Part shown: positions 49,790 through 64,000 of the stretch, piece after piece | How the letters are laid out: each line of letters begins with the position of its first letter | Numbering within the stretch: the first letter of the stretch is position 1 | Source of the DNA: a virus | Lineage: Duplodnaviria > Caudoviricetes | Direction: 5' to 3' (one strand) | Virus record (IMG/VR): IMGVR_UViG_3300037761_000327 | Span: 9,660 to 73,659 of that record | Length of the DNA stretch: 64,000 nt | Notes under the pieces: generated by a model | What the model was told of the DNA's origin: nothing | What the model saw: only the letters and a program-made list of their open reading frames with translations | Databases searched by the model: none | Program-made: the position numbers and the translations under genes

Positions 49790-49885
49790 TTTAAGATATT
49801 AATATAGCTCCACTACCAATTAAAATATGTATATAAAAACATGCCCAACATTCCTATCCATAAGAATGCATATGATACTACTTCC

Positions 49886-50592: not shown

Positions 50593-50612
50593 TTGATAGT
50601 GTTTTGTTTAGG

Positions 50613-50672: not shown

Positions 50673-50687
50673 AGTGTTTTGTTTAGG

Positions 50688-50933: not shown

Positions 50934-50948
50934 AGTGTTTTGTTTAGG

Positions 50949-51236: not shown

Positions 51237-51251
51237 AGTGTTTTGTTTAGG

Positions 51252-51467: not shown

Positions 51468-51482
51468 AGTGTTTTGTTTAGG

Positions 51483-51746: not shown

Positions 51747-51761
51747 AGTGTTTTGTTTAGG

Positions 51762-51971: not shown

Positions 51972-51986
51972 AGTGTTTTGTTTAGG

Positions 51987-52232: not shown

Positions 52233-52247
52233 AGTGTTTTGTTTAGG

Positions 52248-53306: not shown

Positions 53307-53580
53307 TTAAAGTGGTGCCTTTGAACTCATAAAGGTTCTTCGAAGGAAGGATTGCATACACGGCTGATAGTGGAAATGTTAGGGTTTCGTCCTTGTCGAA
53401 CTGGTCAAGGTGGACAGTCGCCCCGTCTCTATTAGAAGCAACCCCGGGCAACCCTTTACCACCACCGAACTTTCTGAACATTGATGCATTTGTAAGGGAA
53501 ACGAAACCTTCGGGGGCATTTATCTCCTCTCCAAAGAAATAAAACCCACCTGCAATAGTAAAAATCTTAAAATTTTTCAT
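53299..53580 (-). CDS. Small beta-rich hypothetical protein
   Basis: GFYFFG...LTNASMFRKFGGGKGLPGVA; overlaps the VWA gene start. Confidence 0.7.
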   Translation of the reverse strand: MKNFKIFTIAGGFYFFGEEINAPEGFVSLTNASMFRKFGGGKGLPGVASNRDGATVHLDQFDKDETLTFPLSAVYAILPSKNLYEFKGTTLNG

Positions 53581-53638
53581 TTTTGTTTAATTTAAAAGTT
53601 AATATTTGTTTTTGTTATATTTAGTTTAGGTCAGACAA

Positions 53639-54418
53639 TCAATCGAACCTCAACGGTTTTTGTAGGGCCCTTCCGCCTACGCTTCTAGATATTGCCTGTA
53701 TATCAGCTCCACCCTCCCCTTTGTTAGCGTTCGACTTAAACAGGCTTATCATCCCGCTTGCTGCATTGGTCGTCAACAACCCTTTTATTATCTCCTTTTT
53801 TTCATCGGTCTTCAAAGCCTTGTCCAGTGAAGCGGAGATTGCCATTTCCAAACTCCGTGGACTTGTTGTTCGAAGTTCAAAATCCTCACCAATACGTTCC
53901 AACAAGGGGATTTCCCTATTTTTTATCCTGTCAACAAAGCTTTGGATAAAATCATTGTCGAGGTGTCCGTACTTGTTTGTGATGAAACTTATAAAACCAA
54001 CAACGTCAGGAACAGCGTTTATTATCGTAAACCTGTTCATCATAGGTATCGAAACTCCGTCTCCGCCACCCCACTCAGGAGGATTGGCACAAGCAATTAC
54101 ATCTACGCTTTCGGGTATCCCGAACAGTTCCTGATTGGTTACCAGTGTTAACAAAGTGTCGGAAACTTCCCTTCTTGCTTTGTCCATTTCGTCGAGTAAA
54201 AGGCACACTTTTTGGTTTTTCAGGGAAGCTTGTTGCAACCTTGCCACAAACGGCGGGATTGCCCTCTTTTCGAAGTCGCCTTCCCTATAGGGGATTCCGG
54301 ATATATCCTCCTCGGTCATACTGGATAATAGTAATACTTCAACGTAGTCGTATTGCTGTTTTATCTTCTGGGTCTTGCCAATTCCAGTGGCGCCCACGTA
54401 CAGTTTTGGTATTTTCAT
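53639..54418 (-). CDS. MoxR/dynein-related AAA+ ATPase
   Basis: Walker A GATGIGKT, D..GIP, Walker B LLLDE, sensor ANP, arginine finger NRF, SPRS. Confidence 0.9.
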   Translation of the reverse strand: MKIPKLYVGATGIGKTQKIKQQYDYVEVLLLSSMTEEDISGIPYREGDFEKRAIPPFVARLQQASLKNQKVCLLLDEMDKARREVSDTLLTLVTNQELFGIPESVDVIACANPPEWGGGDGVSIPMMNRFTIINAVPDVVGFISFITNKYGHLDNDFIQSFVDRIKNREIPLLERIGEDFELRTTSPRSLEMAISASLDKALKTDEKKEIIKGLLTTNAASGMISLFKSNANKGEGGADIQAISRSVGGRALQKPLRFD

Positions 54419-54439
54419 GATGGTATTGATATTTACGAT

Positions 54440-54475
54440 TAATGTTTATAAGTAATGTTTATAAGTAATGTTTAT
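54440..54475. repeat. 13-bp tandem repeat (TAATGTTTATAAG, about 2.8 copies)
   Basis: Intergenic, immediately upstream of the AAA gene. Confidence 0.75.
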
Positions 54476-54483
54476 TTATATCC

Positions 54484-54888
54484 TTACAGACCCAAATCCC
54501 CCATCATTATCCCGCCCCTCTCAAGGTCCATCCTCATCTCTTCGATAAAGGATTGGTGCTCTACCTGTGCGAGCCATTCTTCGTAGGAGGTGCCCCCTCT
54601 TTGAATATCTACGCTATATTCCCCATCTGCACCAGTCCCCTGCATTCCAGCCTGAAATGGTAGAGACGGATAGCCCCTTTTTGCGTACAGCCCTCCAAAA
54701 TCTGGATTTTCTGTATGCTCCTCTCCTCTATCGATAGCATCCTCCTCCGCCTGCGCTTTGGTCCTGTTACTGTTCTTTGTCCTTGTTCCATGTTTCGAGT
54801 TTTGATAGTGAATGTCTTCCCTTCTTGCCTTTGCCGCGAGCAATGCTGCGAAAGCGAATATTGCTGCTGCCATTAAGTAATTGTTCAT
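54484..54888 (-). CDS. Hypothetical protein with N-terminal hydrophobic segment
   Basis: MNNYLMAAAIFAFAALLAA. Confidence 0.6.
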   Translation of the reverse strand: MNNYLMAAAIFAFAALLAAKARREDIHYQNSKHGTRTKNSNRTKAQAEEDAIDRGEEHTENPDFGGLYAKRGYPSLPFQAGMQGTGADGEYSVDIQRGGTSYEEWLAQVEHQSFIEEMRMDLERGGIMMGDLGL

Positions 54889-54985
54889 ACCTTAGTTTTT
54901 AAATAGTTTCATTACCCTTCTTACCCTTGTACCGCTCTCGCAATCGGATATGTCCATACAGTCGAAGGCCAAGTCAAAATCCCGT

Positions 54986-55321
54986 TTAGGTATCTGCTCC
55001 GCCAACCTGTTCAGTTCCGTCATCCTGTTGTACCATTCCTGTGTTGTCATCCTTGATTATTTTAAATTGTCCTTTGTGGAGTGTCTGGGGGGTGGGGTAC
55101 CAAAACGGGAGACCCTTGCACAAAACTTTGCACCGCTCCCCACTTATTCTATACACGTCCACTCCACCGTAGCCGTTGCTTGTCCCCCTTATCTCCCCTA
55201 TCGAGCCGTCCTTTAAGCAGTGCCCTACGTGATGCCCCCTTCGCCTACTTTGGTCGTACGAAGGGCTGTTCGGATTCAGTTCGCCGATTATAATTACCTT
55301 TGTTCCTATTGGTATACTCAT
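54986..55321 (-). CDS. Hypothetical protein
   Basis: Related in style to the N-terminal half of the neighbouring ORF (HC, GYGG/GGYG, F/W.IIKD). Confidence 0.5.
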   Translation of the reverse strand: MSIPIGTKVIIIGELNPNSPSYDQSRRRGHHVGHCLKDGSIGEIRGTSNGYGGVDVYRISGERCKVLCKGLPFWYPTPQTLHKGQFKIIKDDNTGMVQQDDGTEQVGGADT

Positions 55322-55330
55322 GATTTCCCT

Positions 55331-55822
55331 CTATTTATGGTTATCCCTACAATTGTCCTCTATGTCATCAATTATACCCTTTGCACCTTCGGGGCCTGCG
55401 AACCAGTAAGTAATTTTTTCTTTGTTGGGCCCGTGGTAGGTGATGGTATTGTCGGTATTTATATCGTACTTACAACAACCGTTGTTCGATATTACCGAAA
55501 CCTCCACCCTGTCACGCTTTCCCGAAGCGCAGGAAGAGGAAAGAGCGAATATAAGGATTATGATAGTGAATACATTGAACAGGGACTTAATGGATTTCCA
55601 GAGTCCTTTTAAGAAACTGTGACTTTCGTCCTTTTCGTCCTTTATAATTTCCCATTCTGAGCCGTACCCTCCTATGTGTGCGCAGTGGTTTGGTATGCAG
55701 TAGTGCCCTTTCACATAAAAACCGGCAGATATTCCCGGCTTTGTTTCGTATACTTCGTCCCGGTCTACCCAAGTAGTTGACCTCAGGCCATCCTTACCTA
55801 TACTTTTTACCTTTACTTTCAT
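55331..55822 (-). CDS. Hypothetical membrane protein
   Basis: Internal hydrophobic segment ending LSSSC (lipobox-like). Confidence 0.55.
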   Translation of the reverse strand: MKVKVKSIGKDGLRSTTWVDRDEVYETKPGISAGFYVKGHYCIPNHCAHIGGYGSEWEIIKDEKDESHSFLKGLWKSIKSLFNVFTIIILIFALSSSCASGKRDRVEVSVISNNGCCKYDINTDNTITYHGPNKEKITYWFAGPEGAKGIIDDIEDNCRDNHK

Positions 55823-56007
55823 GATTTTTCTTTTTGATATCCGTACTCAGTTTCTTTTTTCTCTAGCAGCTCTATACAATCCAAGTGCAGGAGAGTTGCG
55901 TCCTTAAAACTAAGGTTGTCTAGGTTGTATCCCAGCCCCTTGGCCCATTCGCTGAACCTTATTATGTCTTCCATGGTTCAGTGTGTTTTGGATTTTATAT
56001 TTATTAG

Positions 56008-56083
56008 TAGCCCGTGGGAGAATCGAACTCGCCATTTTACGGTTGAAAACCGCACGTCCTTATATCCGTTAGACGAACGGGCC
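56008..56083 (-). tRNA. tRNA-Glu (TTC)
   Basis: GGCCCGT/ACGGGCT acceptor; TGCGG-TTTTCAA-CCGTA; TTCGATT loop. Confidence 0.85.
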
Positions 56084-56217
56084 ATTTACGCCATTGGATT
56101 AAAGCGTAATCAAATACTCGGTCGCTCCCATCAATAACAGGATTAATACAAACGCGACTCCCCAAAATGTTGATTTAGATACTTTCATGGTGTTAGGATT
56201 TAGTTGTTTTAATTCCG

Positions 56218-56280
56218 TGCCAAAGATGGGATTCGAACCCACAAGCCCGTATTATTTTAGGGCATACCGGTTTCATTGGC
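56218..56280 (-). ncRNA. tRNA-like element (acceptor, T arm, one hairpin; no D arm)
   Basis: GCCAATG/CTTTGGC, GTGGG-TTCGAAT-CCCAT, GCCC...GGGC. Confidence 0.5.
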
Positions 56281-56304
56281 GTTAAATCGCTGTGCTATTG
56301 GGGT

Positions 56305-56340
56305 AAATAAAAACCCCGCACGGTTTGGTTGTGCAGGGTT
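56305..56340 (-). terminator. Intrinsic terminator after ORF 56368-56751
   Basis: AACCCTGCAC-loop-GTGCGGGGTTTTTATTT on the minus strand. Confidence 0.7.
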
Positions 56341-56367
56341 ATTGTAATCAAATATTTAGGTGTGATG

Positions 56368-56751
56368 TTAGGCAGTTACCTTAACGCTTTCCTTCTTTGC
56401 GGTCACCTTTTTAGCGTCCTCCTTTGTGGAATTGGCCAAGTTTTTGTTCAAAGCTTGCAGCACATAAAAAGGGCTGTAATTTCCGGCCTTGGAGATACGG
56501 ACAATACCTTTAAAGGATTTGAACGCTTCATTATCCTTTTGTACAAAGCGCAATACTTTCACCCTTTGTGCATCCAAACCTATCTCATTGCTGAAATTCA
56601 AAAGCGTCTTGATACACCCGCCCAAAGACCTTGTTTCTACCTTCAGGGCCCTGTTAACGCCCAATACTTGGGTTGCGTAAATGCCTTGGCCTTTTTTCTC
56701 CCCAGTCTTAACGACCGCTTTTACTTTTTTTGTGTCGATAATAGTTTCCAT
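56368..56751 (-). CDS. Basic early protein
   Basis: 127 aa, Lys-rich; first clear gene of the leftward arm. Confidence 0.65.
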   Translation of the reverse strand: METIIDTKKVKAVVKTGEKKGQGIYATQVLGVNRALKVETRSLGGCIKTLLNFSNEIGLDAQRVKVLRFVQKDNEAFKSFKGIVRISKAGNYSPFYVLQALNKNLANSTKEDAKKVTAKKESVKVTA

Positions 56752-57770
56752 AATATTAAGTATTAATTTGTTTGTTACGGCAATATTGCCATTGTTTTAG
56801 TTTAAAAATTGTGTTGGTGCCATGCGGGATATTCACTACGCCCGCATAGCCAGTATAATAAGTATTAAAGGCGCTTTACATTTCAATGGTGTTAAATGTG
56901 CCTGAACCTTAAAGAGGTACACCATCATTTCAATGTATGTTTTTTGTTTATTATAAAAATCCCCATAGTTACAATTATATTTATCTAGTTTTTGGACTGT
57001 TTACCCTTTACATACTTTGGGCGCCAAATTGTCGGATTTTTACGGGCATGCTCTACAATAGTAGTTAACTCATGCCCCGTTACGGCAATTATCAGTAGTG
57101 TTTAAGGGGTGTAAATCCCTCTACCCATAACGGAATTTTTACGCCATTTTGCGGTGGCGTGACCAGTGGGCCGTATAACAACGGACGTTGGTTCTTTTAA
57201 TTGCTTTCAAACGCTTGTAATGGATGTGGCACGGGTGGGAGAATGTTTAAAGGCACAATGTAATGTACCACTTACTCTTAATGCTTTCCAGTTACCATAT
57301 ACAAACTATGTCATGTAATCTTGCTTTGCCAAGCGTTGGGACGGTCAAGGGCTTGCCCTACTTTGCCACTAATTGTCCATACGGTGAATGTTTATTACTT
57401 GTTGACCCAAATATTTGTGCTCTTACAAAAGATTGGCCCAAATTATCAACTTAAAGGGGGGAACGAATTTAAAAGACTCTGACCCCCTTCCCTGCGGAAT
57501 TACAGGACAATTAAAGGTTTTAACGCCTTCCATACCTATGGAGTTTATAACGCTTGTTTGCGCTTGGTAAGATTACAGTACTTCAAAGAACTTGTGTTGA
57601 TTCGTCCAACACTTGCGATTTTGCTCGGTGTTATGCAGCCCCTAGCGGTTACTTGTACATGACCTACTTTATTCGGGTTGCACTTTCACGTTATGCTAGC
57701 TATACACATACGCCTGTTTTTATAATATCGCTTGTAAAGAACGTTTTGCCGTTTCCGACTTTCAACACCC

Positions 57771-57778
57771 CAAACATA
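57771..57778 (-). promoter_or_regulatory. -7 promoter element TATGTTTG for the leftward early arm
   Basis: CAAACATA on the plus strand with T-rich upstream region. Confidence 0.5.
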
Positions 57779-58471
57779 CGGCAACTTTCCCGAAAAACAA
57801 TAAAAAAATCGATGAAATGCAGGAAAATCCGATGAAATGTAGTCAAAGGGCGACTTAAGGATGCATGATGCGGGAGCGGGCGGGCGTGTAGATATATACC
57901 CGCACGTGGGCAGGATAATTACGTGTGTGCGTATGCGGGAATATAGCCACGATAGGGGCAGGTCATGGCGTTGGGAGGGCATGCCGTTGGTAGATTGTGC
58001 CGGGGTGGGTCAAGGCCATCATAGACAGAATCTATAGCAGCAATAACTGCCCATAGACAAAACACATAGAAGGGCAATTTCCTACCCTAATAAAGTTAGT
58101 TAAATACCTGTTTAACACACTTTACTTATACATAAACAAGCTATAAAAAACTGGCACAAGGATACACAAGGTATTCGTATAAGCTATTGGAACACAGATG
58201 GTTAGGCCATAAAAAAGCTAAAACTTTTGACAGAAAAATCTCAAACAGGACCCCCGCCCCCTCGCAGAAATTCGATTTCCTTTTCGGCCGCGAGCCCTTA
58301 AAATATACTATGACTTAAAGCGGTTTAAGCGAAATATCTCTGTGAATTTTTGAAAAATCATGCAAGTTTTAACATTCTTTAACAATGACGGATTTTATAC
58401 CGAATTTTTGGCCTAAAAATAGACCCAAAAACAGTTCTATTTTAATCTTTTTAAAAATAATTTGATATGAG

Positions 58472-58507
58472 TTTGGTTTGTATTATAATTTTACTTATAT
58501 TTGTACC
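58472..58507 (+). promoter_or_regulatory. Promoter of tRNA cluster 1 (36-bp exact repeat of 61681-61716)
   Basis: TTTGGTTTGTATTATAATTTTACTTATATTTGTACC contains -33 TTTG and -7 TATATTTG. Confidence 0.85.
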
Positions 58508-58533
58508 TGAACGATTAAAAAGAAACATTTTCA

Positions 58534-58614
58534 ATGTACTCAACAGCCATCATAGCGACAGTAATCAGAACCGGAGGTAAGGATAAACCCTCGGGGAGGA
58601 TTTTTATGCTGTAA
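58534..58614 (+). CDS. Putative leader peptide 1 (MYSTAIIATVIRTGGKDKPSGRIFML)
   Basis: 26-codon ORF between promoter and terminator. Confidence 0.7.
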   Translation: MYSTAIIATVIRTGGKDKPSGRIFML

Positions 58615-58640
58615 TGTCGATAGTACATTAAATTACACAT

Positions 58641-58672
58641 AAACCTTCTCCCTAAAAAGAGAGGGTTTTTTA
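58641..58672 (+). terminator. Attenuator terminator 1
   Basis: AAACCTTCTC-loop-GAGAGGGTTT followed by T run. Confidence 0.8.
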
Positions 58673-58674
58673 TT

Positions 58675-58705
58675 GGCCTGTTAGTTTAGCTGACGAAAAC
58701 TTGCC
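58675..58705 (+). pseudogene. 5' tRNA remnant (acceptor 5' strand and D arm)
   Basis: GGCCTGT-TA-GTTT-AGCTGACGA-AAAC directly after the terminator; no T arm follows. Confidence 0.35.
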
Positions 58706-58763
58706 TAATAATAAGCCTTCCAACTAATAATCGCTATTATAAGCAGATTTAAGAGTACAATAT

Positions 58764-58937
58764 ATGAGCAGAACGTACAGAAAAAGTAGAAACGGCTTAA
58801 AATTTAGAGAAGGAAGGTATGCCGAAGGAGTTTTTTATAAGTGCCGGTGTGAATATTGTACTGGAATAGATAAGAAGATTCTTGAGGATAAAATCCTTGA
58901 CAAGGAAATGAAACAGGAGTGTAGCTTAATTGGTTAA
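58764..58937 (+). CDS. 57-aa basic protein MSRTYRK...CRCEYC (not in ORF track)
   Basis: Translated by hand; CxCxxC motif; stop lies inside tRNA-Ile. Confidence 0.55.
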   Translation: MSRTYRKSRNGLKFREGRYAEGVFYKCRCEYCTGIDKKILEDKILDKEMKQECSLIG

Positions 58938-58988
58938 AGTACTCAGCTGATACCTGAGTGAGTGCAAGTTCGAATCTTGCCACTCCTA
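58915..58988 (+). tRNA. tRNA-Ile (GAT)
   Basis: Full cloverleaf: AGGAGTG/CACTCCT, CTCAG-CTGATAC-CTGAG. Confidence 0.92.
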
Positions 58989-58993
58989 CAACT

Positions 58994-59066
58994 GCGAAAG
59001 AGGTCATAGAGGAATGGCGCCTGCCTTCCAAGCAGGAGTTAGCGAGTTCGAACCTCGTCTTTCGCT
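58994..59066 (+). tRNA. tRNA-Gly (TCC)
   Basis: GCGAAAG/CTTTCGC, CCTGC-CTTCCAA-GCAGG. Confidence 0.9.
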
Positions 59067-59071
59067 AATTT

Positions 59072-59155
59072 AGCGGGGCAGTCAGTAGAGGAAGCTTGTG
59101 GGGCTCATAACCCCATGCCGAAAGGCCCCGGGAGTTCGAATCCCCCTCCCTGTTC
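59072..59155 (+). tRNA. tRNA with CAT anticodon (Met/fMet-like) and long variable arm
   Basis: TGGGG-CTCATAA-CCCCA; extra GCC-GAAA-GGC hairpin. Confidence 0.7.
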
Positions 59156-59159
59156 AAAT

Positions 59160-59229
59160 TGGGGTAAGCCTAGGTAGGTTAGCGGACCTTATATGTCCGT
59201 GGGGACGGGTTCGATTCCCTCTACCCCAA
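59160..59229 (+). tRNA. tRNA-Ile (TAT)
   Basis: TGGGGTA/TACCCCA; CGGAC-CTTATAT-GTCCG; short D arm. Confidence 0.7.
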
Positions 59230-59233
59230 CAAA

Positions 59234-59265
59234 TTTGGTAGTTACAAAAGAATTTCGTATCTTTG
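59234..59265 (+). promoter_or_regulatory. Promoter (-33 TTTG, -7 TATCTTTG), probably leaderless
   Basis: ATG at 59269 follows the -7 box after 3 nt. Confidence 0.65.
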
Positions 59266-59268
59266 ACC

Positions 59269-59553
59269 ATGACGGATTTTATACCTAAAAAAAACCAACA
59301 GGAGATACACGAAATCAACTTCCAGAACGCCGAGGAGCTGCTACTGTACCACAAGTACCTGTACTACGAGCTCTCCAAGCCGATGGTGACCGACCAACAC
59401 TTCGACCAGCTCGACCAATATGCAAGAAGACTTTCCCAGTACGTATGCCCCAAGCGCTTTCCACCGGAGGAATACGTACACGAGACAATGGTCGGCTTTG
59501 ATAAAAATCACCGGTTGTGGCCGAAAGTGAAAGAGAGATTTGGAATAAAATAA
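59269..59553 (+). CDS. Stand-alone protein resembling NAD-dependent DNA ligase domain Ia
   Basis: LLYHKYLYYELSKPMVTDQHFDQL matches H...YY....P.I.D..YD.L; ends with a VG motif. Confidence 0.65.
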   Translation: MTDFIPKKNQQEIHEINFQNAEELLLYHKYLYYELSKPMVTDQHFDQLDQYARRLSQYVCPKRFPPEEYVHETMVGFDKNHRLWPKVKERFGIK

Positions 59554-59569
59554 AAAAATTGTATAAAAG

Positions 59570-59600
59570 TTTGTAGGTATCAAAAAAAGTTGTATATTAG
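59570..59600 (+). promoter_or_regulatory. Promoter of tRNA cluster 2
   Basis: -33 TTTG at 59570; -7 variant TATATTAG at 59593-59600. Confidence 0.65.
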
Positions 59601-59604
59601 CAGC

Positions 59605-59694
59605 ATGAAAACATTAAACACATATAATTCCTTTTGGTATTCGAATTGCTCCGGCAATGTTGAAGGGGATTCCTATGTCTACAAACTCATATAA
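59605..59694 (+). CDS. Putative leader peptide 2 (MKTLNTYNSFWYSNCSGNVEGDSYVYKLI)
   Basis: 29-codon ORF between promoter and terminator. Confidence 0.8.
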   Translation: MKTLNTYNSFWYSNCSGNVEGDSYVYKLI

Positions 59695-59724
59695 CTGTTT
59701 TCGTTTTTTGATTTTGATTCATTT

Positions 59725-59754
59725 AACCCTTCGTCTCCTAACGAGGGGTTTTTT
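59725..59754 (+). terminator. Attenuator terminator 2
   Basis: AACCCTTCGT-ctccta-ACGAGGGGTT followed by TTTT. Confidence 0.85.
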
Positions 59755-59760
59755 GTTTTA

Positions 59761-59845
59761 TGCCATTTTATACCGTAGGGGTAGCGGGGCAGACTGTAAA
59801 TCTGTTGTTTAACGACTCGGGTGGTTCGACTCCACCAGGTGGCAC
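59761..59845 (+). tRNA. tRNA-Tyr (GTA)
   Basis: GCAGA-CTGTAAA-TCTGT; long variable arm; GGTGG-TTCGACT-CCACC. Confidence 0.85.
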
Positions 59846-59849
59846 ATTT

Positions 59850-59932
59850 AGTGGGTAGCGCAGAGGTTGCGAACCGGTCTTGAAAACCGGGCTATCGGGG
59901 GACTGATGAGGGTTCGATTCCTTTACCCACTA
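59850..59932 (+). tRNA. tRNA-Ser (TGA)
   Basis: AGTGGGT/ACCCACT; CCGGT-CTTGAAA-ACCGG; long variable arm. Confidence 0.85.
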
Positions 59933-59986
59933 CAATATATTTGTTCAATTATTTTTCGTACTTTTGATTCGAACTAAAATAAAACT

Positions 59987-60505
59987 ATGAAAGGACAAAT
60001 ATTAAAATTAAGAAGCTCGGGTAAAACCTACAACGAAATTATAAAAGAGCTAGGTTGCAGCAAAGGCACAGTGAGTTATTATTGTGGAGAAGGTCAAAAA
60101 ACTAAAACTCTAGCCAGAACTAGAAAAAGAAGAACAAACCCTGTAGTGGGCAAACTTGAAAAGTTTTTGTCAAGGGCAAACAAGATAAGGGTAAATGATT
60201 TTCAAAGGAATAGAGGAAATGGAGGCTCTTTTAAAGAGGGGAGAGATTATAATTTCACAGTAAAAGATGCTATTAAAAAATTTGGACATAATCCTATTTG
60301 CTATTTGACGGGCAGAAGAATAGATTTATTAGATAGTAAATCTTATCACTTTGACCACATTATTCCGGTGTCCAAGGGGGGTAAGAATACCTTAAGTAAC
60401 TTAGGACTACTGTGCAGAGAGGCTAATTACTCGAAAAGTGATATGATGGTAGATGAATACCTACAGTTATGTAAAGAGGTTATAGAATATTCTAATAGAG
60501 GGTAA
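59987..60505 (+). CDS. HTH-HNH homing endonuclease inside the tRNA cluster
   Basis: GKTYNEI..ELGCSKGTVSYY; CYLTG, FDHIIPVSKGG.N...NL...C...N..K. Confidence 0.88.
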   Translation: MKGQILKLRSSGKTYNEIIKELGCSKGTVSYYCGEGQKTKTLARTRKRRTNPVVGKLEKFLSRANKIRVNDFQRNRGNGGSFKEGRDYNFTVKDAIKKFGHNPICYLTGRRIDLLDSKSYHFDHIIPVSKGGKNTLSNLGLLCREANYSKSDMMVDEYLQLCKEVIEYSNRG

Positions 60506-60580
60506 ACTGAGCAGGTGTTCAGGAGGTATTGCTAATACTATCGAGGGTAGTACCTTGCGTTTCGAGTACGCTGCCCTCTT
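60497..60580 (+). tRNA. tRNA-Ser (GCT)
   Basis: AGAGGGT/GCCCTCT; GGTA-TTGCTAA-TACT; long variable arm. Confidence 0.75.
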
Positions 60581-60589
60581 CTATTATAA

Positions 60590-60676
60590 GGGTAAGTTGC
60601 CGTAGTGGACGAACGGTTCAGCCTGTTAAGCTGGCGAGCAAAAGCTCCATCGTAGGTTCGAATCCTACCTTGCCCT
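60590..60676 (+). tRNA. tRNA-Asn (GTT) with long variable arm
   Basis: GGGTAAG/CTTGCCC; TCAGC-CTGTTAA-GCTGG; GAGC-AAAA-GCTC. Confidence 0.8.
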
Positions 60677-60683
60677 CTTTAAT

Positions 60684-60754
60684 GCTTGTGAGCGCAGGTT
60701 GTGCCGGTCGGTCTCCAAAACTGTACCGTAAGAGTTCGAATCTCTTCACTCGCG
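60684..60754 (+). tRNA. tRNA-Trp (CCA)
   Basis: CGGT-CTCCAAA-ACTG; AAGAG-TTCGAAT-CTCTT; two acceptor mismatches. Confidence 0.7.
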
Positions 60755-60759
60755 CTAAT

Positions 60760-60862
60760 TAAAATAGACTTATGCCGTGAAACGGTGTGATGGTCGCTGG
60801 ATGAAAGCAACGCACTTAATGACCGTGCCCAAAATTGATAAAATTTCCAGATGTCTATTTTA
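60760..60862 (+). ncRNA. Candidate structured non-tRNA RNA
   Basis: 10-bp closing stem TAAAATAGAC/GTCTATTTTA enclosing several hairpins. Confidence 0.5.
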
Positions 60863-60868
60863 TTACTT

Positions 60869-60942
60869 GCGTCAGAAGCTAACTTGGTTAGAAGCGCCGG
60901 CTTGAAGCCCCGGAGGAGTTGGTTCGATTCCAGCCTGTCGCA
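60869..60942 (+). tRNA. tRNA-Phe (GAA)
   Basis: GCGTCAG/CTGTCGC; loop TTGAAGC; GTTGG-TTCGATT-CCAGC. Confidence 0.8.
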
Positions 60943-60955
60943 CATAATTATCTAT

Positions 60956-61030
60956 ATTGGGGAACCTGACGGAGAAGGGGGACGTCTGCAAAACCATCCC
61001 ATGCCGGTTCGACCCCGGCCCCCAATTCCA
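60956..61030 (+). tRNA. tRNA-Cys (GCA)
   Basis: ATTGGGG/CCCCAAT, U discriminator, CCA; loop CTGCAAA. Confidence 0.8.
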
Positions 61031-61078
61031 TTTAAATTCTTTTTTGTACCTTTACAACCTAACATTAAAAATGTAACA

Positions 61079-61405
61079 ATGGCAAAAACAACAAAAAACG
61101 GGCCGGGGGACAAGGACAAGAAAAAAAAATCCACCTCCAAAGCTAACGACACGATAAGCCCGTACTACGCAGCGGTAAAATATGGAAGCTCTCTCGAAAA
61201 GAATGCTGCCAAGAAATCCATGGCAGGATACTTCTCCGGCTCCCCTGCCAACAAAAGAGGAGAGTCCGAGAGCCAGCACATGTCCAGAATGGCCAAAAAA
61301 GATACTATCCCCAGTGCCAGAAAAGCGAGGGGAGTATATCAGGCAGGTAACTTTGGTCCCAGCATCGGCAAAAAAGCATCCTCAACCGTAAAAAAGAAAA
61401 AGTAA
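61079..61405 (+). CDS. Lys-rich hypothetical protein
   Basis: Start reassigned to MAKTT because the upstream part of the track ORF is tRNA sequence. Confidence 0.6.
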   Translation: MAKTTKNGPGDKDKKKKSTSKANDTISPYYAAVKYGSSLEKNAAKKSMAGYFSGSPANKRGESESQHMSRMAKKDTIPSARKARGVYQAGNFGPSIGKKASSTVKKKK

Positions 61406-61406
61406 T

Positions 61407-61679
61407 ATGAAAAATCTATTCTTAGGACTTGCACTATTGATTTCGTCTATAGTGTTCTCACAGGAGCCCGTTCTGGACAGCATACAAGTTTTTAAACCTA
61501 TGCCGGAGCCTGTACTGATAGCCACTATGTACGAATACGAAACGTTCTTCGAGAAACTTACAAAAGTGTCCGACAGGACAGGTGCCAATGAGGTTATCTG
61601 CGTATTTTTCTACAAAGAGGATAAAGACTCTCCCCAAAAAACTCTGGTAAAAACTTTTATTAGAAAAAAACAACGATAA
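61407..61679 (+). CDS. Secreted hypothetical protein
   Basis: Signal peptide MKNLFLGLALLISSIVFS-Q. Confidence 0.6.
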   Translation: MKNLFLGLALLISSIVFSQEPVLDSIQVFKPMPEPVLIATMYEYETFFEKLTKVSDRTGANEVICVFFYKEDKDSPQKTLVKTFIRKKQR

Positions 61680-61680
61680 A

Positions 61681-61716
61681 TTTGGTTTGTATTATAATTT
61701 TACTTATATTTGTACC
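61681..61716 (+). promoter_or_regulatory. Promoter of tRNA cluster 3 (identical to 58472-58507)
   Basis: 36-bp exact repeat with -33 and -7 boxes. Confidence 0.85.
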
Positions 61717-61719
61717 ATC

Positions 61720-61797
61720 ATGAAAACAACACGCTTTGTTGCGGTACGCAACTTACATACACAGCTACTAGAGCAACCGGAAATAATCGTCTGGTAG
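61720..61797 (+). CDS. Putative leader peptide 3 (MKTTRFVAVRNLHTQLLEQPEIIVW)
   Basis: 25-codon ORF between promoter and terminator. Confidence 0.75.
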   Translation: MKTTRFVAVRNLHTQLLEQPEIIVW

Positions 61798-61839
61798 GGA
61801 TAGGTATGGTGTGATGTAAGAAACTTATATTATCGTATT

Positions 61840-61873
61840 AAGCCTCCCCGGAAACGTGGGGGCTTTTTATTTT
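61840..61873 (+). terminator. Attenuator terminator 3
   Basis: AAGCCTCCCCG-GAAA-CGTGGGGGCTT followed by TTTATTTT. Confidence 0.85.
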
Positions 61874-61946
61874 CGGGATGTGACAAAATTGGTAACGTGC
61901 TCGGTTTGGAGCCGAGAGACTGTAGGTTCGAGGCCTACCTCCCCTA
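61874..61946 (+). tRNA. tRNA-Pro (TGG), weak acceptor stem
   Basis: CTCGG-TTTGGAG-CCGAG; GTAGG-TTCGAGG-CCTAC. Confidence 0.7.
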
Positions 61947-61994
61947 CAAAGAGACGTTTGGCCGTTTAACTCCTTAAAAAACAATGGCCCTAAT

Positions 61995-62067
61995 GCTACC
62001 ATCGTCTAAATGGTCAGGACACAAGACTTTCAATCTTGAAATCGGGTTTCGATTACCCGTGGTAGTA
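61995..62067 (+). tRNA. tRNA-Glu (TTC)
   Basis: GCTACCA/TGGTAGT; CAAGA-CTTTCAA-TCTTG. Confidence 0.9.
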
Positions 62068-62077
62068 CGAATATAAT

Positions 62078-62148
62078 TGGAGTATGATGTAGTGGTAACA
62101 TGGTTGGTTTTGAGCCAACTCTCGGAGGTTCGACCCCTTCTGCTCCAA
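62078..62148 (+). tRNA. tRNA-Gln (TTG)
   Basis: TGGAGTA/TGCTCCA; GTTGG-TTTTGAG-CCAAC. Confidence 0.9.
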
Positions 62149-62155
62149 CTAACAT

Positions 62156-62237
62156 GGTGTCATTGTTGTAAACGGTGAGCATAGTAGGTTGTGACCTTGC
62201 AGGTCTCGGTTCGAATACTCCCGGGCGTTCTACACCA
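62156..62237 (+). pseudogene. tRNA-His (GTG) with disrupted 3' end
   Basis: Normal through GTAGG-TTGTGAC-CTTGC and CTCGG-TTCGAAT, then loses register. Confidence 0.65.
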
Positions 62238-62367
62238 ATTTCGTACTATTGGGCGTCCTGAAAGATAGGGCGTCCTTTATCTTTGAATCCTTCCTTCTGT
62301 ACAGCCTCGCTACCTTTTTATTAGGGTCGGAGGCCTTTTCCGATATCTTATGTTTTCTGTAGTTCAT
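62230..62367 (-). CDS. 45-aa basic protein (not in ORF track)
   Basis: MNYRKHKISEKASDPNKKVARLYRRKDSKIKDALSFRTPNSTKLV. Confidence 0.55.
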   Translation of the reverse strand: MNYRKHKISEKASDPNKKVARLYRRKDSKIKDALSFRTPNSTKLV

Positions 62368-62404
62368 AGTTGCAAGGTAATGATTTTTTTGTTATATTGT
62401 ATTC

Positions 62405-62899
62405 ATGATAAAAAGATTTATATTACTCGCCCTTACACTGACCGTCTTCGGTTTCACCTTCGACCACGGCCCCATTAACTACGTCCAAGAACAAAAGATG
62501 GGAAGGCCCCACGTAGAGGCTCGACTACTGAAATACTTTAATGAGCTGGACTCTATCTACGTCTCCAAAGGCATCGTAATAGACTACTCCAAGGTATCCA
62601 GCATACAGAGTATGGACTCACTCCCGTACGACCCGGTGTTGCAAGGAAAGTCTTTGGAAGGCCTGTATAATAAGCACACAAATCAAGTGTACATAAACAC
62701 CTATCAATTGGATGCCTTTTTTAAGGGCAAGTACAAAGAGAAGATTTTGCTTATAATGGCACATGAGATAGGCCACTCACAAGGTATGGGCCACTCTAAT
62801 GACACCACTTCCATAATGTACTACAGTAGTAAGTACGTTTCGGCCCTGCTGGATAACAATAAAATTGAGGACCTTGTGAGCGAGATGTATTTAAATTGA
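62405..62899 (+). CDS. Secreted metzincin (matrixin/M10-like) metalloprotease
   Basis: Signal peptide; HEIGHSQGMGH; Met-turn SIMY. Confidence 0.85.
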   Translation: MIKRFILLALTLTVFGFTFDHGPINYVQEQKMGRPHVEARLLKYFNELDSIYVSKGIVIDYSKVSSIQSMDSLPYDPVLQGKSLEGLYNKHTNQVYINTYQLDAFFKGKYKEKILLIMAHEIGHSQGMGHSNDTTSIMYYSSKYVSALLDNNKIEDLVSEMYLN

Positions 62900-63538
62900 C
62901 ATTTTTAGCCTTTGATATCTTCGGCCCAAATTATTTATACTATTCCTCCTCTTTAAAGTTCTACCCCTCTTCGGGGGGAGGTTCTATAAGTATTACTTAT
63001 GTAGTAAGTAACTACTATATAAGTACCTATTAAATATTTACTACTTTATTAAGTAACTACTATAATAGTATTGAAACGATATCTAACGGGGAACGCTACG
63101 CTTTAAACAAAAATAAGGGTTTTCCTTATATTGCTTTGTCGTAACGCTCGTTCATTTGTCTTGAAACTGACTCTGAACGGGTGTGGGTATATCTCCCAAG
63201 GGTGTTTAGTCCTCTACCTCCCTGTTGCTAACACTAACACGACCCCCGCGGGCCCAAAGATGCTTGGCCCCCGTCAACTGGCCCCATGCTACAAGGAATA
63301 CTTGTTTTAAGACGGTCGGATACTTCGGGCAGTCCTACTACCTCTTTCTCCTTGTTCCCCTAGCTTTTTAAGTGGTCTGGGTAAATCGTCACTCCGTAAT
63401 GTAAATAAGTACAAATATACAAAAAATATTCTAATCACCAAACAATACCACCATTATTTTTATAAAAAATTCACAGTCCCTCATAACTCCCTGATTTACT
63501 GCGCGATAAAAAATAATTTAAAAATAATTACCCTAAAG

Positions 63539-63570
63539 TTTGTTGAAACCGATTATTTGTTCTATATTTG
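63539..63570 (+). promoter_or_regulatory. Promoter (-33 TTTG, -7 TATATTTG)
   Basis: Consensus boxes upstream of 63596. Confidence 0.65.
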
Positions 63571-63595
63571 CTGTGAACGAAAATAGAAGAGAGGT

Positions 63596-63733
63596 ATGAA
63601 ACTGATAATAATGGCCCCCACAGTAGACCTCTACCTCCGACAGGGCCTTGCCCACGAGCTTAGGGACATGGAGCGCGGGAGCTCGGCAGTGGTGCCAAAA
63701 ACGGATTATGTGCTTATAATAAAAAATGATTGA
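63596..63733 (+). CDS. 45-aa hypothetical protein
   Basis: ORF directly after the promoter. Confidence 0.45.
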   Translation: MKLIIMAPTVDLYLRQGLAHELRDMERGSSAVVPKTDYVLIIKND

Positions 63734-63735
63734 TT

Positions 63736-64000
63736 ATGGGAAGCGTAACATGCGTAACGCCAACAGATGGTATATTTCTTTTTGAAAAAGGTTCTATGTT
63801 CATAGAGGCCATAAAAACAGGAAACAGTTTTAAAGTCCCTAAGCACAGGTGGACCTATCCAAAACTAGTATCGGCAAAAGCTTCTATACTTGGTCCAGAC
63901 CATGAAATTTTTATTACTGACTTGGGGGTTATAACCTCTATAACTTTTGACGAGCATATAGCGGAATTAGCAATATCCCCTTACTCCTCTAAAGGATTTC
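63736..64000 (+). CDS. Hypothetical protein, truncated by window end
   Basis: MGSVTCVTPTDG... open to the last base. Confidence 0.5.
   Translation, partial: MGSVTCVTPTDGIFLFEKGSMFIEAIKTGNSFKVPKHRWTYPKLVSAKASILGPDHEIFITDLGVITSITFDEHIAELAISPYSSKGF

What the first reader, a model, noticed from the sequence alone, without database searches (positions are those of the whole stretch)
58472..62237. Three phage tRNA operons each gated by a leader-peptide attenuator matched to its tRNAs
Seen: the same architecture occurs three times: Bacteroidota promoter > 25-29 codon ORF > intrinsic terminator > tRNA cluster starting within a few nt of the U-run. Leader 2 has NTYNSFWYSNCS before Tyr, Ser, Ser, Asn, Trp, Phe, Cys. 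Leader 3 has LHTQLLEQPE before Pro, Glu, Gln, His. Leader 1 has Ile (ATC, ATA, ATC, ATT), Gly (GGA, GGT, GGG) and Met before Ile-GAT, Gly, Met, Ile-TAT. Established: ribosome-mediated attenuation of this form controls trp/his/thr/ilv biosynthetic operons. Inference: the phage senses shortage of specific charged tRNAs (starvation or host anticodon nucleases) by ribosome stalling, then transcribes the matching replacement tRNAs as a multi-input feedback loop. I do not know of a description of this for phage tRNA arrays.
Basis: partly seen in the sequence, partly recalled or inferred. Interest (0 to 1): 0.95.

Follow-up and report, generated by a model that had tools for sequence, protein, structure and literature searches.

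The report
Leader-peptide attenuators gating phage tRNA operons
A marine Flavobacteriaceae phage places a tiny reading frame and a transcription stop signal in front of each tRNA gene cluster, the frame spells out the codons read by the tRNAs behind it, and this points to an undescribed feedback switch that makes tRNAs only when they run short.

Summary
The architecture is real. Three units of promoter, 25-29-codon ORF, intrinsic terminator and tRNA cluster lie at 58472-62275 of a 73.7-kb Callevirus-like phage genome.

In the window alone only unit 2 is statistically compelling: 10 of 10 consecutive codons are cognate, against 0 of 200,000 random gene segments. Unit 3 is marginal, because its 'His' tRNA is a His/Arg deletion chimera. 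Unit 1 is not significant, and a 245-nt gap with a 57-aa ORF separates its terminator from the tRNAs.

Relatives settle the matter. The same design occurs in Cellulophaga phages Calle_1, phi38:1, phi10:1 and phi4:1, in Tenacibaculum phage Gundel_1, in Maribacter phage Panino, and in many metagenomic contigs.
- In 26 units, 137 of 143 tRNA identities are represented in codons 3-17 of their own leader.
- When a tRNA (Asn, Leu, Tyr/Ser, Glu, Ala) moves between clusters or is absent, the leader codons move or vanish with it.
- In most units the ORF's 3' part can pair with the terminator's 5' arm, and this antiterminator covaries with the terminator.

Best reading is ribosome-mediated attenuation giving feedback control of tRNA supply. 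It rests on sequence analysis only. My nine literature searches found no description.

The parts
58472..58503 (+). Promoter of unit 1: -33 TTTG (58472-58475), 20-nt spacer, -7 TATATTTG (58496-58503). The start codon lies 30 nt downstream.
   Evidence: Read. A 36-nt stretch (58472-58507) is identical to 61681-61716. Motif spacing. The promoter consensus itself is recalled, not tested here.
58534..58614 (+). Leader ORF 1, 26 codons. It holds Ile ATC/ATA/ATC/ATT, Gly GGA/GGT/GGG and Met. It also holds Thr, Ala, Val, Arg-AGA, Lys and Asp codons whose tRNAs are missing from this genome but present in relatives.
   Evidence: Homologous leaders in Calle_1, L007, phi4:1 and Panino precede Ala, Lys, Ile, Gly, Met, Asp, Thr, Val and Arg-TCT tRNAs.
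58593..58653 (+). Predicted antiterminator 1. The ORF's last codons plus the stop (58593-58615) pair with 58632-58653, which includes the terminator 5' arm.
   Evidence: The pairing forms with the ribosome A-site at codons 2-16 and is blocked at most later positions, including the stop codon.
58641..58674 (+). Intrinsic terminator 1: stem 58641-58668 followed by a T-run.
   Evidence: -12.4 kcal/mol.
58764..58937 (+). 57-aa Cys-rich ORF between terminator 1 and the tRNAs. It overlaps the start of tRNA-Ile.
   Evidence: A homologous ORF lies between Lys and Ile in L007. No PHROG match.
58915..59230 (+). tRNA cluster 1: Ile-GAT 58915-58989, Gly-TCC 58994-59066, Met-CAT 59078-59155, Ile-TAT 59160-59230.
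   Evidence: Rfam supports Ile and Gly, scores Ile-TAT weakly (24 bits) and does not list Met.
59570..59600 (+). Promoter of unit 2: TTTG 59570-59573, 19-nt spacer, TATATTAG 59593-59600. Only 4 nt separate it from the ATG, so a leaderless mRNA is predicted.
   Evidence: Read. The 4-nt spacing occurs in 16 of 28 units. The leaderless start is inference.
59605..59694 (+). Leader ORF 2, 29 codons. The control block N-T-Y-N-S-F-W-Y-S-N-C-S occupies codons 5-16.
59620..59678 (+). Segments 1 and 2 of attenuator 2. The control codons (59620-59632) pair with 59665-59678. Segment 2 (59662-59667) can alternatively pair with 59727-59732 in the terminator 5' arm.
   Evidence: The 1:2 pairing appears in the ribosome-free fold and the 2:3 pairing when the A-site is at codons 7-15. 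Duplex energy -11.0 kcal/mol.
59725..59760 (+). Intrinsic terminator 2: stem 59725-59750 followed by a T-run. tRNA-Tyr starts at 59762.
59762..61030 (+). tRNA cluster 2: Tyr 59762-59845, Ser-TGA 59850-59933, HNH endonuclease ORF 59987-60505, doubtful Ser-GCT-like about 60497-60580, Asn 60590-60677, Trp 60684-60755, Phe 60869-60943, Cys 60956-61030.
   Evidence: HNH matches phrog_6050 at E 5.7e-38. The HNH ORF is absent in L008.
61681..61712 (+). Promoter of unit 3: TTTG 61681-61684, 20-nt spacer, TATATTTG 61705-61712. The ATG lies 7 nt downstream.
61720..61797 (+). Leader ORF 3, 25 codons. The control block R-N-L-H-T-Q-L-L-E-Q-P-E occupies codons 10-21.
   Evidence: The leader peptide is the same in L008; one synonymous base differs.
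61797..61849 (+). Predicted antiterminator 3. Its 5' strand starts at the stop codon, and its 3' strand includes the terminator 5' arm.
   Evidence: More of the terminator's 5' arm is held with the A-site at codons 2-21 (6-7 nt) than at codons 22 to stop (3 nt). This unit's own-partner duplex is not better than foreign ones (rank 17 of 28).
61841..61873 (+). Intrinsic terminator 3 followed by a T-run. tRNA-Pro starts at 61874.
   Evidence: -14.2 kcal/mol for the core arms; -17.3 with the longer arms.
61874..62233 (+). tRNA cluster 3: Pro 61874-61947, Glu 61995-62068, Gln 62078-62149, then a His/Arg(ACG) chimeric pseudo-tRNA at 62155-62233.
   Evidence: The deletion is shown by alignment with L008.
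62251..62275 (+). Terminator closing unit 3.

Best explanation
Each unit is a ribosome-mediated transcription attenuator whose regulated genes are tRNA genes.

Proposed mechanism.
1. A phage promoter starts a transcript that begins at or very near the start codon of a 20-33-codon ORF.
2. Codons about 5-17 of that ORF form a 'barcode' made almost only of codons read by the tRNAs encoded downstream.
3. The ORF's last third and its stop region form the 5' strand of an antiterminator that pairs with the 5' arm of an intrinsic terminator. In units 2 and 3 of the window, and in most relatives, that terminator sits immediately before the first tRNA.
4. If every cognate charged tRNA is plentiful, the ribosome runs through the barcode and occupies or melts the antiterminator strand. 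The terminator then forms and the tRNA cluster is not transcribed.
5. If any one of those tRNAs is scarce, the ribosome stalls on the barcode. The antiterminator forms, RNA polymerase reads through, and the whole cluster is made.

The product relieves the stall, so the circuit is a negative-feedback homeostat for tRNA supply with one input per tRNA species.

Shown here (in silico): the architecture, the codon match, its covariation with cluster content, and the alternative pairings and their covariation.

Inferred: translation of the ORFs, transcription-translation coupling, termination and read-through, the leaderless start, and the physiological trigger.
For: 1. Architecture in the window.

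2. Recurrence.
- Calle_1 and phi38:1.
- Contig L007/L016, and type-C units in L009, L013, L018 and L017.
- L047, L049, L051, L054 and L066.
- A second unit in L051.
- phi10:1, of a different phage family.
- phi4:1, Gundel_1 and Panino.
- Among loci fetched through an unbiased tRNA-Pro seed, 26 of 33 assessable loci carry the matched leader and 7 do not. Many of these loci are duplicates of one phage.

3. Codon match.
- The best 8-codon window is 8 of 8 for the type-B leaders of the window, Calle and L007, against 0 of 100,000 random segments each.
- Type-C leaders reach 5-8 of 8, with 98 to 1,983 of 100,000 random segments doing as well.
- The 3x3 leader-by-cluster matrices are diagonal-dominant in the window, Calle and L007.
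- The match is codon-exact for arginine: AGA goes with Arg-TCT in type-A units and CGN with Arg-ACG in type-C units.

4. Covariation (26 units).
- 137 of 143 (unit, tRNA amino acid) pairs are represented in leader codons 3-17.
- Within-type shuffles reach the observed agreement in 23 of 20,000 trials; all-unit shuffles in 0 of 20,000.
- Asn tRNA and N codons both sit in the Pro/Gln unit of Gundel_1. phi10:1 has no Asn tRNA and no N in its 10-codon control block, though one N codon follows at codon 16.
- Leu tRNAs and L codons sit together in the Tyr/Ser unit of L051.
- Tyr and Ser tRNAs and Y/S codons sit together in the Pro unit of L017.
- Glu tRNA and E codons in the control block are present together or absent together.

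5. Substitutions between homologous leaders stay inside the cognate set, and the order of residues is shuffled (listing). This fits codon sensing and does not fit a conserved peptide.

6. Alternative structure.
- Ribosome-position scans of 18 units show the terminator 5' arm held by an upstream strand while the A-site is on the barcode. In 13 of them it is fully released at some later position; in several it re-forms before the stop (the Against line 4).
- Summed contrast is 130, against a shuffle mean of 36.6 and a maximum of 66 in 100 shuffles.
- Own ORF-3' region against own terminator arm gives a duplex sum of -296.4, against -216.2 (sd 10.7) for permuted partners; 0 of 20,000 permutations do as well. 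The own partner ranks in the top 5 in 20 of 28 units.

7. RNA-library contigs from phi38:1-holding runs join leader, terminator and tRNAs in one piece (X2 record 10, X5 record 24, X1 record 7). This is compatible with read-through transcripts.

8. Controls.
- 24 unrelated ORFs sharing the first eight residues of leader 2 do not continue with the barcode and, with one exception (L023, a tRNA-Phe 1.1 kb downstream), have no tRNA within 2.5 kb downstream.
- 0 of 20 tRNA units of one Bacteroidales genome show the design.
- E. coli pheV and pheU have no leader.
Against: 1. There is no direct evidence of translation, termination or read-through. The RNA data are contigs only and DNA carry-over cannot be excluded.

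2. In this window, units 1 and 3 match their present clusters poorly: 3 of 8 (p 0.44) and 5 of 8 (p 0.02). Leader 1 keeps codons for Thr, Ala, Val, Arg, Lys and Asp without phage tRNAs, so leaders do not track recent losses.

3. Exceptions exist.
- The L011/L015/L019/L067 lineage has promoter and terminator but no leader ORF.
- The Tyr-Cys cluster of L049 has a terminator but no matched ORF.
- L018 lacks an Arg codon although Arg-ACG follows.
- L051 unit B has an F codon without a Phe tRNA.
- A Thr ACA codon is conserved inside type-B and type-C barcodes without a Thr tRNA in those clusters.

4. The structure evidence is modest unit by unit.
- Shuffle fractions range from 0 of 100 to 56 of 100.
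- Five units (u3_window, u3_L054, u3_L051, u3_L066, u2_L007) never fully release the arm.
- In several units (u3_L002, u3_L047, u3_L054, u3_L066, u2_window, u2_L007) the antiterminator can re-form with the ribosome at the stop codon.
- u3_window, u3_L049, u3_L066, u1_phi4 and u2_Panino pair no better with their own arm than with foreign ones.

5. The units are related, so the counts are not independent events.

6. Several tRNA identities rest on relaxed ARAGORN settings or on my own reading of anticodon loops. These are Gundel Tyr and Cys, L051 Cys, L017 Ser-GCT, the Calle Leu-TAG and the Calle Ala-like element.
Confidence: 0.8

Rival explanations
1. The short ORFs are translated and do sense tRNA supply, but the output is not transcription termination. 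The hairpin would instead act as a processing or stability element, or as an insulator. Ribosome position would then control cleavage (for example RNase P or RNase E access) or decay of the tRNA precursor.
For: In units 2 and 3 of the window, and in most relatives, the first tRNA starts at the end of the T-run. RNase P cleavage must therefore occur right at the terminator tail. RNA-library contigs bridge the terminators.
Against: The hairpins are canonical G+C-rich stems followed by 5-8 T. The ORF's 3' part is complementary specifically to the 5' arm and covaries with it. That is the geometry of an antiterminator.
Confidence: 0.07
2. The leader RNA senses tRNAs directly, without ribosomes. The string of codons would pair with anticodons of uncharged or charged tRNAs in a T-box-like way and switch the terminator.
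For: The control element is a string of triplets complementary to the downstream anticodons.
Against: No T-box or any other Rfam cis-regulatory family scores in the region at E<=1; the only non-tRNA rows there, Plastid-ycf2 and sX4, lie on tRNA genes at about a third of their gathering scores. All 28 leaders analysed keep a start codon, an open frame and a stop codon, and in the 18 units measured the stop lies 24-49 nt before the terminator arm. The cognate triplets are contiguous and in frame. 16 of 28 leaders have the ATG at a fixed 4 nt from the promoter motif. None of this is needed for a ribosome-free sensor, and pairing of up to ten different tRNAs side by side is sterically implausible (inference).
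Confidence: 0.05
3. The ORFs encode small functional peptides, and their position before tRNA clusters has another reason.
For: Several are annotated as hypothetical proteins in GenBank records: phi38:1 gp066, phi4:1 gp075, and Panino CDS0063 and CDS0108.
Against: Composition is conserved but residue order and identity are not. Substitutions stay within the cognate tRNA set (listing), and composition changes with cluster content.
Confidence: 0.03
4. Coincidence or shared ancestry. The terminators merely end upstream genes, and the ORFs are chance frames in A+T-rich spacers.
For: In the window alone, leaders 1 and 3 are not clearly beyond chance. One lineage has the terminator without an ORF.
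Against: 0 of 200,000 and 0 of 100,000 random segments match leader 2. The design recurs in different phage families with independent tRNA rearrangements. Each unit has its own promoter between the upstream gene and the ORF.
Confidence: 0.03

Closest known systems
Ribosome-mediated attenuators of amino-acid biosynthetic operons (trp, his, leu, pheA). Recalled textbook knowledge.
   Same: A short leader ORF with regulatory codons, an intrinsic terminator, and a mutually exclusive antiterminator whose formation depends on where the ribosome sits. Unit 2 of the window even shows the classical 1:2 / 2:3 / 3:4 layout.
   Different: The regulated genes are tRNA genes, not biosynthetic enzymes. The signal is the availability of up to ten different tRNA species read once or a few times each, not a run of one codon. 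Many units seem to lack a 1:2 anti-antiterminator, so absence of translation should give read-through. 16 of 28 leaders are predicted to be leaderless mRNAs. The element is encoded by phages of Bacteroidota.
Multivalent attenuators thr (Thr+Ile) and ilvGMEDA (Ile+Leu+Val). Recalled.
   Same: One leader polls several amino acids at once.
   Different: Those poll two or three amino acids of one pathway. Here a leader polls 4-10 unrelated amino acids, defined only by which tRNA genes follow.
pheST (pheM leader) attenuation and T-box riboswitches, which tune aminoacyl-tRNA synthetase genes to tRNA charging. Recalled.
   Same: They control a component of the translation apparatus by sensing the state of the cognate tRNA.
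   Different: The output here is the tRNA itself. No T-box features were found, and the sensing would be by the ribosome.
Promoter-level control of bacterial tRNA genes (stringent and growth-rate control). E. coli pheV and pheU were checked here.
   Same: It regulates tRNA gene transcription.
   Different: E. coli pheV and pheU have the promoter directly before the tRNA and no leader ORF or attenuator. 0 of 20 tRNA units of one Bacteroidales genome have the design.
Phage tRNA arrays as compensation for codon usage, host tRNA decay or tRNA-targeting defences. Recalled literature, not read here.
   Same: It supplies the rationale for why a phage carries tRNAs and why their supply might need sensing.
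   Different: Those studies, as I recall them, concern tRNA content and sequence. They do not describe a leader-peptide switch in front of the arrays.

Membership tests
Leader-peptide (ribosome-mediated) transcription attenuator | Short ORF in the transcript leader, enriched in regulatory codons | tested here: met
   Strong for unit 2. For units 1 and 3 it is clear only with the ancestral clusters seen in relatives.
Leader-peptide (ribosome-mediated) transcription attenuator | Intrinsic terminator between the leader ORF and the regulated genes | tested here: met
   Stems of -11 to -19.5 kcal/mol followed by T-runs in all 18 units examined.
Leader-peptide (ribosome-mediated) transcription attenuator | Antiterminator mutually exclusive with the terminator and dependent on ribosome position | tested here: met
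   In silico only. Searches (130 against a shuffle mean of 36.6; 0 of 20,000). Weak for some single units.
Leader-peptide (ribosome-mediated) transcription attenuator | Regulatory codons correspond to what the regulated genes supply | tested here: met
   137 of 143 tRNA identities are represented in their own leader.
Leader-peptide (ribosome-mediated) transcription attenuator | Regulated genes are amino-acid biosynthesis, transport or synthetase genes | tested here: not met
   The genes downstream are tRNA genes. An HNH ORF and a 57-aa ORF ride along.
Leader-peptide (ribosome-mediated) transcription attenuator | Leader translated and coupled to transcription; read-through rises on tRNA shortage | not testable with these tools
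   Only contigs of RNA libraries were available.
T-box riboswitch (Rfam RF00230) | Stem I specifier loop and the conserved T-box sequence in the antiterminator bulge | tested here: not met
   No match at E<=1 in 45000-64000.
Curated Rfam leader families (His, Leu, Thr, Trp leaders, Bacteroid-trp) | Match to the covariance model | tested here: not met
   One search lists only tRNA-clan hits and three sub-threshold chance rows.

The most novel reading that the evidence does not exclude
Phages of marine Flavobacteriaceae carry a codon-barcoded tRNA homeostat. Every tRNA operon is gated by a mini-ORF, mostly leaderless, that polls each tRNA species encoded behind it. A shortage of any single one opens the operon, whether it comes from codon-usage mismatch, host tRNA decay, an anticodon nuclease or hypomodification. 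The module is old and mobile. It occurs in at least five phage genera or families, and the barcode is rewritten whenever tRNA genes move. The three conserved clusters are roughly sorted by the first codon base (U-, C- and A/G-starting codons). The switches might therefore also report the state of the position-37 modification classes. This would be the first ribosome-mediated attenuator known to control tRNA genes.
Probability: 0.7. Interest if true: 0.92.

Novelty: new variant of a known kind. Interest (0 to 1): 0.9.

Why it matters
How phages regulate their tRNA arrays is an open question. The arrays are usually treated as constitutively or temporally expressed cargo.

A sensor that reads the charged-tRNA pool codon by codon and answers by making exactly those tRNAs would be new in three ways.
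- It would be a new output for a textbook mechanism.
- It would be a natural multi-input feedback circuit.
- It would give a direct handle on the arms race around tRNA-targeting defences and on translation control in Bacteroidota, where initiation and transcription-translation coupling are poorly understood.

It is directly testable. Several of the phages (phi38:1, phi10:1, phi4:1, Calle_1, Gundel_1, Panino) are deposited as isolates with named hosts. The barcodes also offer compact, programmable parts for sensing individual tRNAs.

Tried and rejected
1. Precedent in E. coli. I recalled an attenuator before the tRNA-Phe genes pheV and pheU. The K-12 sequences show the promoter directly before the tRNA and no leader, so I dropped that precedent.

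2. 'MKT..TYN' DNA seed. The 24 new loci were all chance hits. They are useful only as a negative control.

3. Other seeds. Searches with the structural protein, tRNA-Cys, tRNA-Gly and the Ala-like element found only Calle, phi38:1, L007/L016, one 98% relative of the window, and L004, in which ARAGORN called no tRNA and which I did not examine further.

4. Genome-contig scan. Five chance hits in protein genes, none with a tRNA.

5. Equilibrium folding of unit 2 with the terminator's 3' arm present always gave the terminator. Only the co-transcriptional view, without the 3' arm, is informative.

6. RNA runs.
- They are SOLiD libraries kept as contigs.
- Contig breaks at 2825 and 5509 fall on the repeated promoters and are assembly effects.
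- In X2 and X4 the contig over leader C (5525-5623/5628) has a depth of about 2,400, against about 280 downstream. In X1 the bin over leader A is high. The tool states that contig depth cannot rank parts of a gene, tRNAs are poorly captured, and no DNA run was laid. I therefore draw nothing from depth or from uncovered parts.

7. The Ala-like element after the type-A terminators of Calle and L007. ARAGORN gives no clean tRNA. Homology to the annotated tRNA-Ala of Panino and phi4:1 suggests Ala-TGC. I left it out of the cluster lists for Calle and L007.

8. Host chromosomes. I did not survey Flavobacteriaceae genomes. One Bacteroidales genome served as a small control.

9. Literature.
- Searches returned listings and abstract starts only.
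- One passage of PMC3082878 was read and is irrelevant.
- None describes leader-peptide attenuators before tRNA genes.
- Subscription journals are not covered, and supplements were not opened.

Full report
WHAT IS THERE

The window is bases 9660-73659 of a 73,659-bp single-contig virus record. Its portal protein is 76-77% identical to those of Cellulophaga phages phi38:1, phi40:1 and Calle_1 of the genus Callevirus. PHROG matches to portal, structural protein, DNA polymerase and primase confirm a tailed phage.

Three units on the + strand between 58472 and 62275 share one plan.
- A Bacteroidota-type promoter: TTTG, 19-20 nt, then TAnnTT[T/A]G (read). The consensus is recalled, not tested here.
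- A short ORF.
- A G+C-rich hairpin followed by a T-run.
- tRNA genes.

Promoters 1 and 3 share an identical 36-nt stretch.

CHECK OF THE OBSERVATION

Four details are not.
- Unit 1's tRNAs begin 245 nt after the terminator, behind a 57-aa ORF.
- The 'His' tRNA is a chimera made by a deletion of about 165 nt between the T-loops of tRNA-His and tRNA-Arg(ACG). In the 98% relative L008 that stretch holds intact His, a Leu-TAG-like tRNA and Arg.
- The second Ser (GCT) is recognised as Ser by no program.
- Trp and Cys appear only at relaxed ARAGORN thresholds.

Against chance, within this genome:
- Leader 2 is overwhelming: 10 of 10 residues in the best window, against 0 of 200,000 random gene segments. 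At codon level it is 8 of 8, against 0 of 100,000.
- Leader 3 against its intact tRNAs is marginal: 5 of 10, p about 0.056. Against the cluster of its 98% relative it scores 9 of 10, with 230 of 200,000 random segments doing as well.
- Leader 1 is not significant: 3 of 8 at codon level, with 43,506 of 100,000 random segments doing as well.

RELATIVES

BLAST of the region found Callevirus phages with the same tRNA order.

Reading them showed the same three units with larger clusters.
- Calle_1 leader A runs K-T-I-M-N-I-A-T-D-I-R-T-K-G-V-K. It precedes an Ala-like element, then Lys, Ile, Gly, Met, Asp, Thr, Val, Arg-TCT and Ile-TAT.
- Leader B is a string of Y, N, F, S, W and C before Tyr, Ser, Ser, Asn, Trp, Phe and Cys.
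- Leader C is R-L-L-H-Q-E-P-L-E-Q-L-R-L-P before Pro, Glu, Gln, His, Leu, Leu and Arg-ACG.

The match is codon-exact for arginine: AGA in unit A with Arg-TCT, CGA/CGT/CGC in unit C with Arg-ACG. The window's leaders 1 and 3 are therefore remnants. The phage has lost Ala, Lys, Asp, Thr, Val and Arg-TCT from unit 1, and His, Leu and Arg from unit 3, while the leaders still carry their codons.

An unbiased seed inside tRNA-Pro retrieved 18 viral, 21 metagenomic and 5 genomic stretches.
- Of 33 assessable loci that really hold the tRNA, 26 have a matched leader and 7 do not. Many are duplicates of one phage.
- Clusters without Glu have leaders without E in the control block (L-R-H-P-Q-Q, Q-H-L-P-Q-R). 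Clusters with Glu have E.
- L017, whose cluster is Pro, Tyr, Gln, His, Arg, Ser, Ser, has the leader S-L-H-S-Y-R-P-L-Q-Q-L-S.
- L051 has a second unit, L-Y-S-F-Y-C-L-L-S-S, before Tyr, Ser, Leu, Leu, Cys and Ser.

Isolates of other phage families show the same design.
- phi10:1 (Assiduviridae): W-S-Y-S-C-F-S-Y-S-F before Tyr, Trp, Phe, Ser and Cys.
- phi4:1 (Lightbulbvirus): all three types, including a type-A leader with Ala codons before an annotated tRNA-Ala.
- Panino: all three types.
- Gundel_1 (Pachyviridae): the Asn tRNA sits in the Pro/Gln cluster, and four N codons sit in that cluster's leader instead of the other one.

QUANTIFICATION

Over 26 units, 137 of 143 (unit, tRNA amino acid) pairs are represented in leader codons 3-17. 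A further 85 leader amino acids have no tRNA behind them; these lie mostly in the N-terminal M-K-T-type start and in the antiterminator-coding part.

Shuffling clusters among units of the same type reaches the observed agreement in 23 of 20,000 trials. Shuffling among all units reaches it in 0 of 20,000.

The units are related, so these are not counts of independent events. The moves of Asn, Leu, Tyr/Ser and Ala are separate rearrangements. Some tRNA identities in the lists are my own readings or rest on relaxed ARAGORN calls.

MECHANISM

Folding without the terminator's 3' arm, which is the state while RNA polymerase is still upstream, shows that the ORF's last third pairs with the terminator's 5' arm.

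A scan of ribosome positions was run on 18 units.
- The arm is held while the A-site is on the barcode.
- In 13 of the 18 units the arm is fully released at some later ribosome position.
- The summed contrast is 130, against a mean of 36.6 and a maximum of 66 in 100 shuffles. Single units range from 0 of 100 to 56 of 100.

Unit 2 of the window has a full 1:2 / 2:3 / 3:4 arrangement.

The antiterminator strand covaries with the terminator. GGGTGG, GGGAGG, GGAAGGATT and AAGGCT versions of the terminator's 3' arm are each mirrored in the ORF. Own-partner duplexes sum to -296.4 kcal/mol, against -216.2 (sd 10.7) for permuted partners, and 0 of 20,000 permutations do as well.

In 16 of 28 units exactly 4 nt separate the TAnnTT[T/A]G motif from the ATG. 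By analogy with the -10 hexamer this puts the transcription start on the A of the ATG, which would make the mRNA leaderless. That is inference.

In units 2 and 3 of the window, and in most relatives, the first tRNA abuts the T-run, so RNase P would sever leader from tRNA. That is also inference.

Units without a 1:2 helix should read through when untranslated. The switch would then report general translation competence as well as specific tRNA supply.

EXPRESSION DATA

Four SOLiD RNA libraries from two studies hold the phi38:1 stretch. Their contigs join leader, terminator and tRNAs. This is compatible with read-through transcripts but not proof, because DNA carry-over cannot be excluded. Depth differences are not interpretable.

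COMPARISON WITH KNOWN SYSTEMS

The element works like the classical leader-peptide attenuators. It meets their structural criteria in silico but fails the criterion of regulating biosynthetic or synthetase genes.

It is not a T-box and matches no Rfam leader family. E. coli tRNA-Phe genes have no such leader. One Bacteroidales genome shows 0 of 20 tRNA units with the design.

Nine full-text searches returned nothing on attenuators before tRNA genes. I saw listings and abstract starts only, plus one irrelevant passage. Subscription journals and supplements were not covered. In GenBank several of the leaders are annotated as hypothetical proteins.

VERDICT

The interpretation as ribosome-mediated attenuation matched to the downstream tRNAs is the best-supported reading (0.8). 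The physiological trigger remains open. I rate it a new variant of a known kind of mechanism and of high interest.

Noticed in passing
L008 (reverse strand) positions 26-110, homologous to window 59762-59845: In the 98% relative, the tRNA at the Tyr position has anticodon CTA (ARAGORN calls it 'Pyl'), which would make it a putative amber suppressor. The window has GTA. The contig ends there, so its leader is unknown.
   Followed up: partly
window 62155-62233: A His/Arg(ACG) chimeric pseudo-tRNA. It was created by a deletion between the two T-loops that also removed a Leu-TAG-like tRNA. tRNA clusters here seem to shrink by T-loop recombination.
   Followed up: yes
window 59987-60505; also L007 and L075 5628-6134: HNH endonuclease ORFs sit inside the tRNA operons. 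In the window the ORF lies between Ser-TGA and the Ser-GCT-like element and is absent in L008. In Gundel_1 it lies between the terminator and tRNA-Pro.
   Followed up: partly
window 58376-58404 and 59260-59288: A 29-nt direct repeat (90% identical, spacing 884 nt) brackets the whole of unit 1. It duplicates the 5' end of the 96-aa ORF 59263-59553, which weakly resembles the N-terminus of DNA ligase. Unit 1 looks like a cassette gained or lost by recombination.
   Followed up: no
window 58764-58937; L007 between Lys and Ile: A conserved Cys-rich ORF of about 57 aa (shared K-C-R-C-E-Y-C-T motif) is embedded in the type-A tRNA operon. It has no PHROG match.
   Followed up: no
window 49715-49789 (-), 56007-56083 (-), 56215-56340 (-): Two further tRNAs (Ile-GAT, Glu-TTC) lie on the minus strand inside the gene module that is mostly on the minus strand. 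Upstream of the Glu gene a terminator is followed directly by a D-arm-less tRNA-like element and a 29-aa hydrophobic ORF. Calle and L016 also have an opposite-strand Glu-TTC.
   Followed up: no
window 60756-60868; L008 464-573: The spacer between tRNA-Trp and tRNA-Phe is nearly identical in L008. It is closed by a long-range stem followed by T's. Calle has a different insert with the same kind of closing stem. It may be a small structured RNA or an internal terminator.
   Followed up: no
L011, L015, L019, L067 (upstream of tRNA-Pro): One lineage keeps the promoter and a terminator directly before tRNA-Pro. It replaces the leader ORF with about 60 nt of non-coding sequence that contains a CCCTAGGG palindrome. 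This may be a different kind of switch or a decayed one.
   Followed up: no
all units: The three conserved clusters are roughly sorted by first codon base. Type B reads mostly U-starting codons (Tyr, Ser, Trp, Phe, Cys, sometimes Leu-UUR) plus Asn. Type C reads mostly C-starting codons (Pro, Gln, His, Leu-CUN, Arg-CGN) plus Glu. Type A reads A- and G-starting codons. By recall, this parallels the position-37 modification classes.
   Followed up: no
type-B and type-C leaders, e.g. window 59620-59622 and 61759-61761: A Thr ACA codon is conserved inside the barcodes (T-Y in type B, H-T-Q in many type-C leaders), although no Thr tRNA lies in those clusters. This is unexplained.
   Followed up: no
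L078 27557-27889 (Panino record): The GenBank record annotates a tmRNA (SsrA) inside the type-A tRNA cluster, overlapping tRNA-Asp and tRNA-Thr. I did not check it.
   Followed up: no
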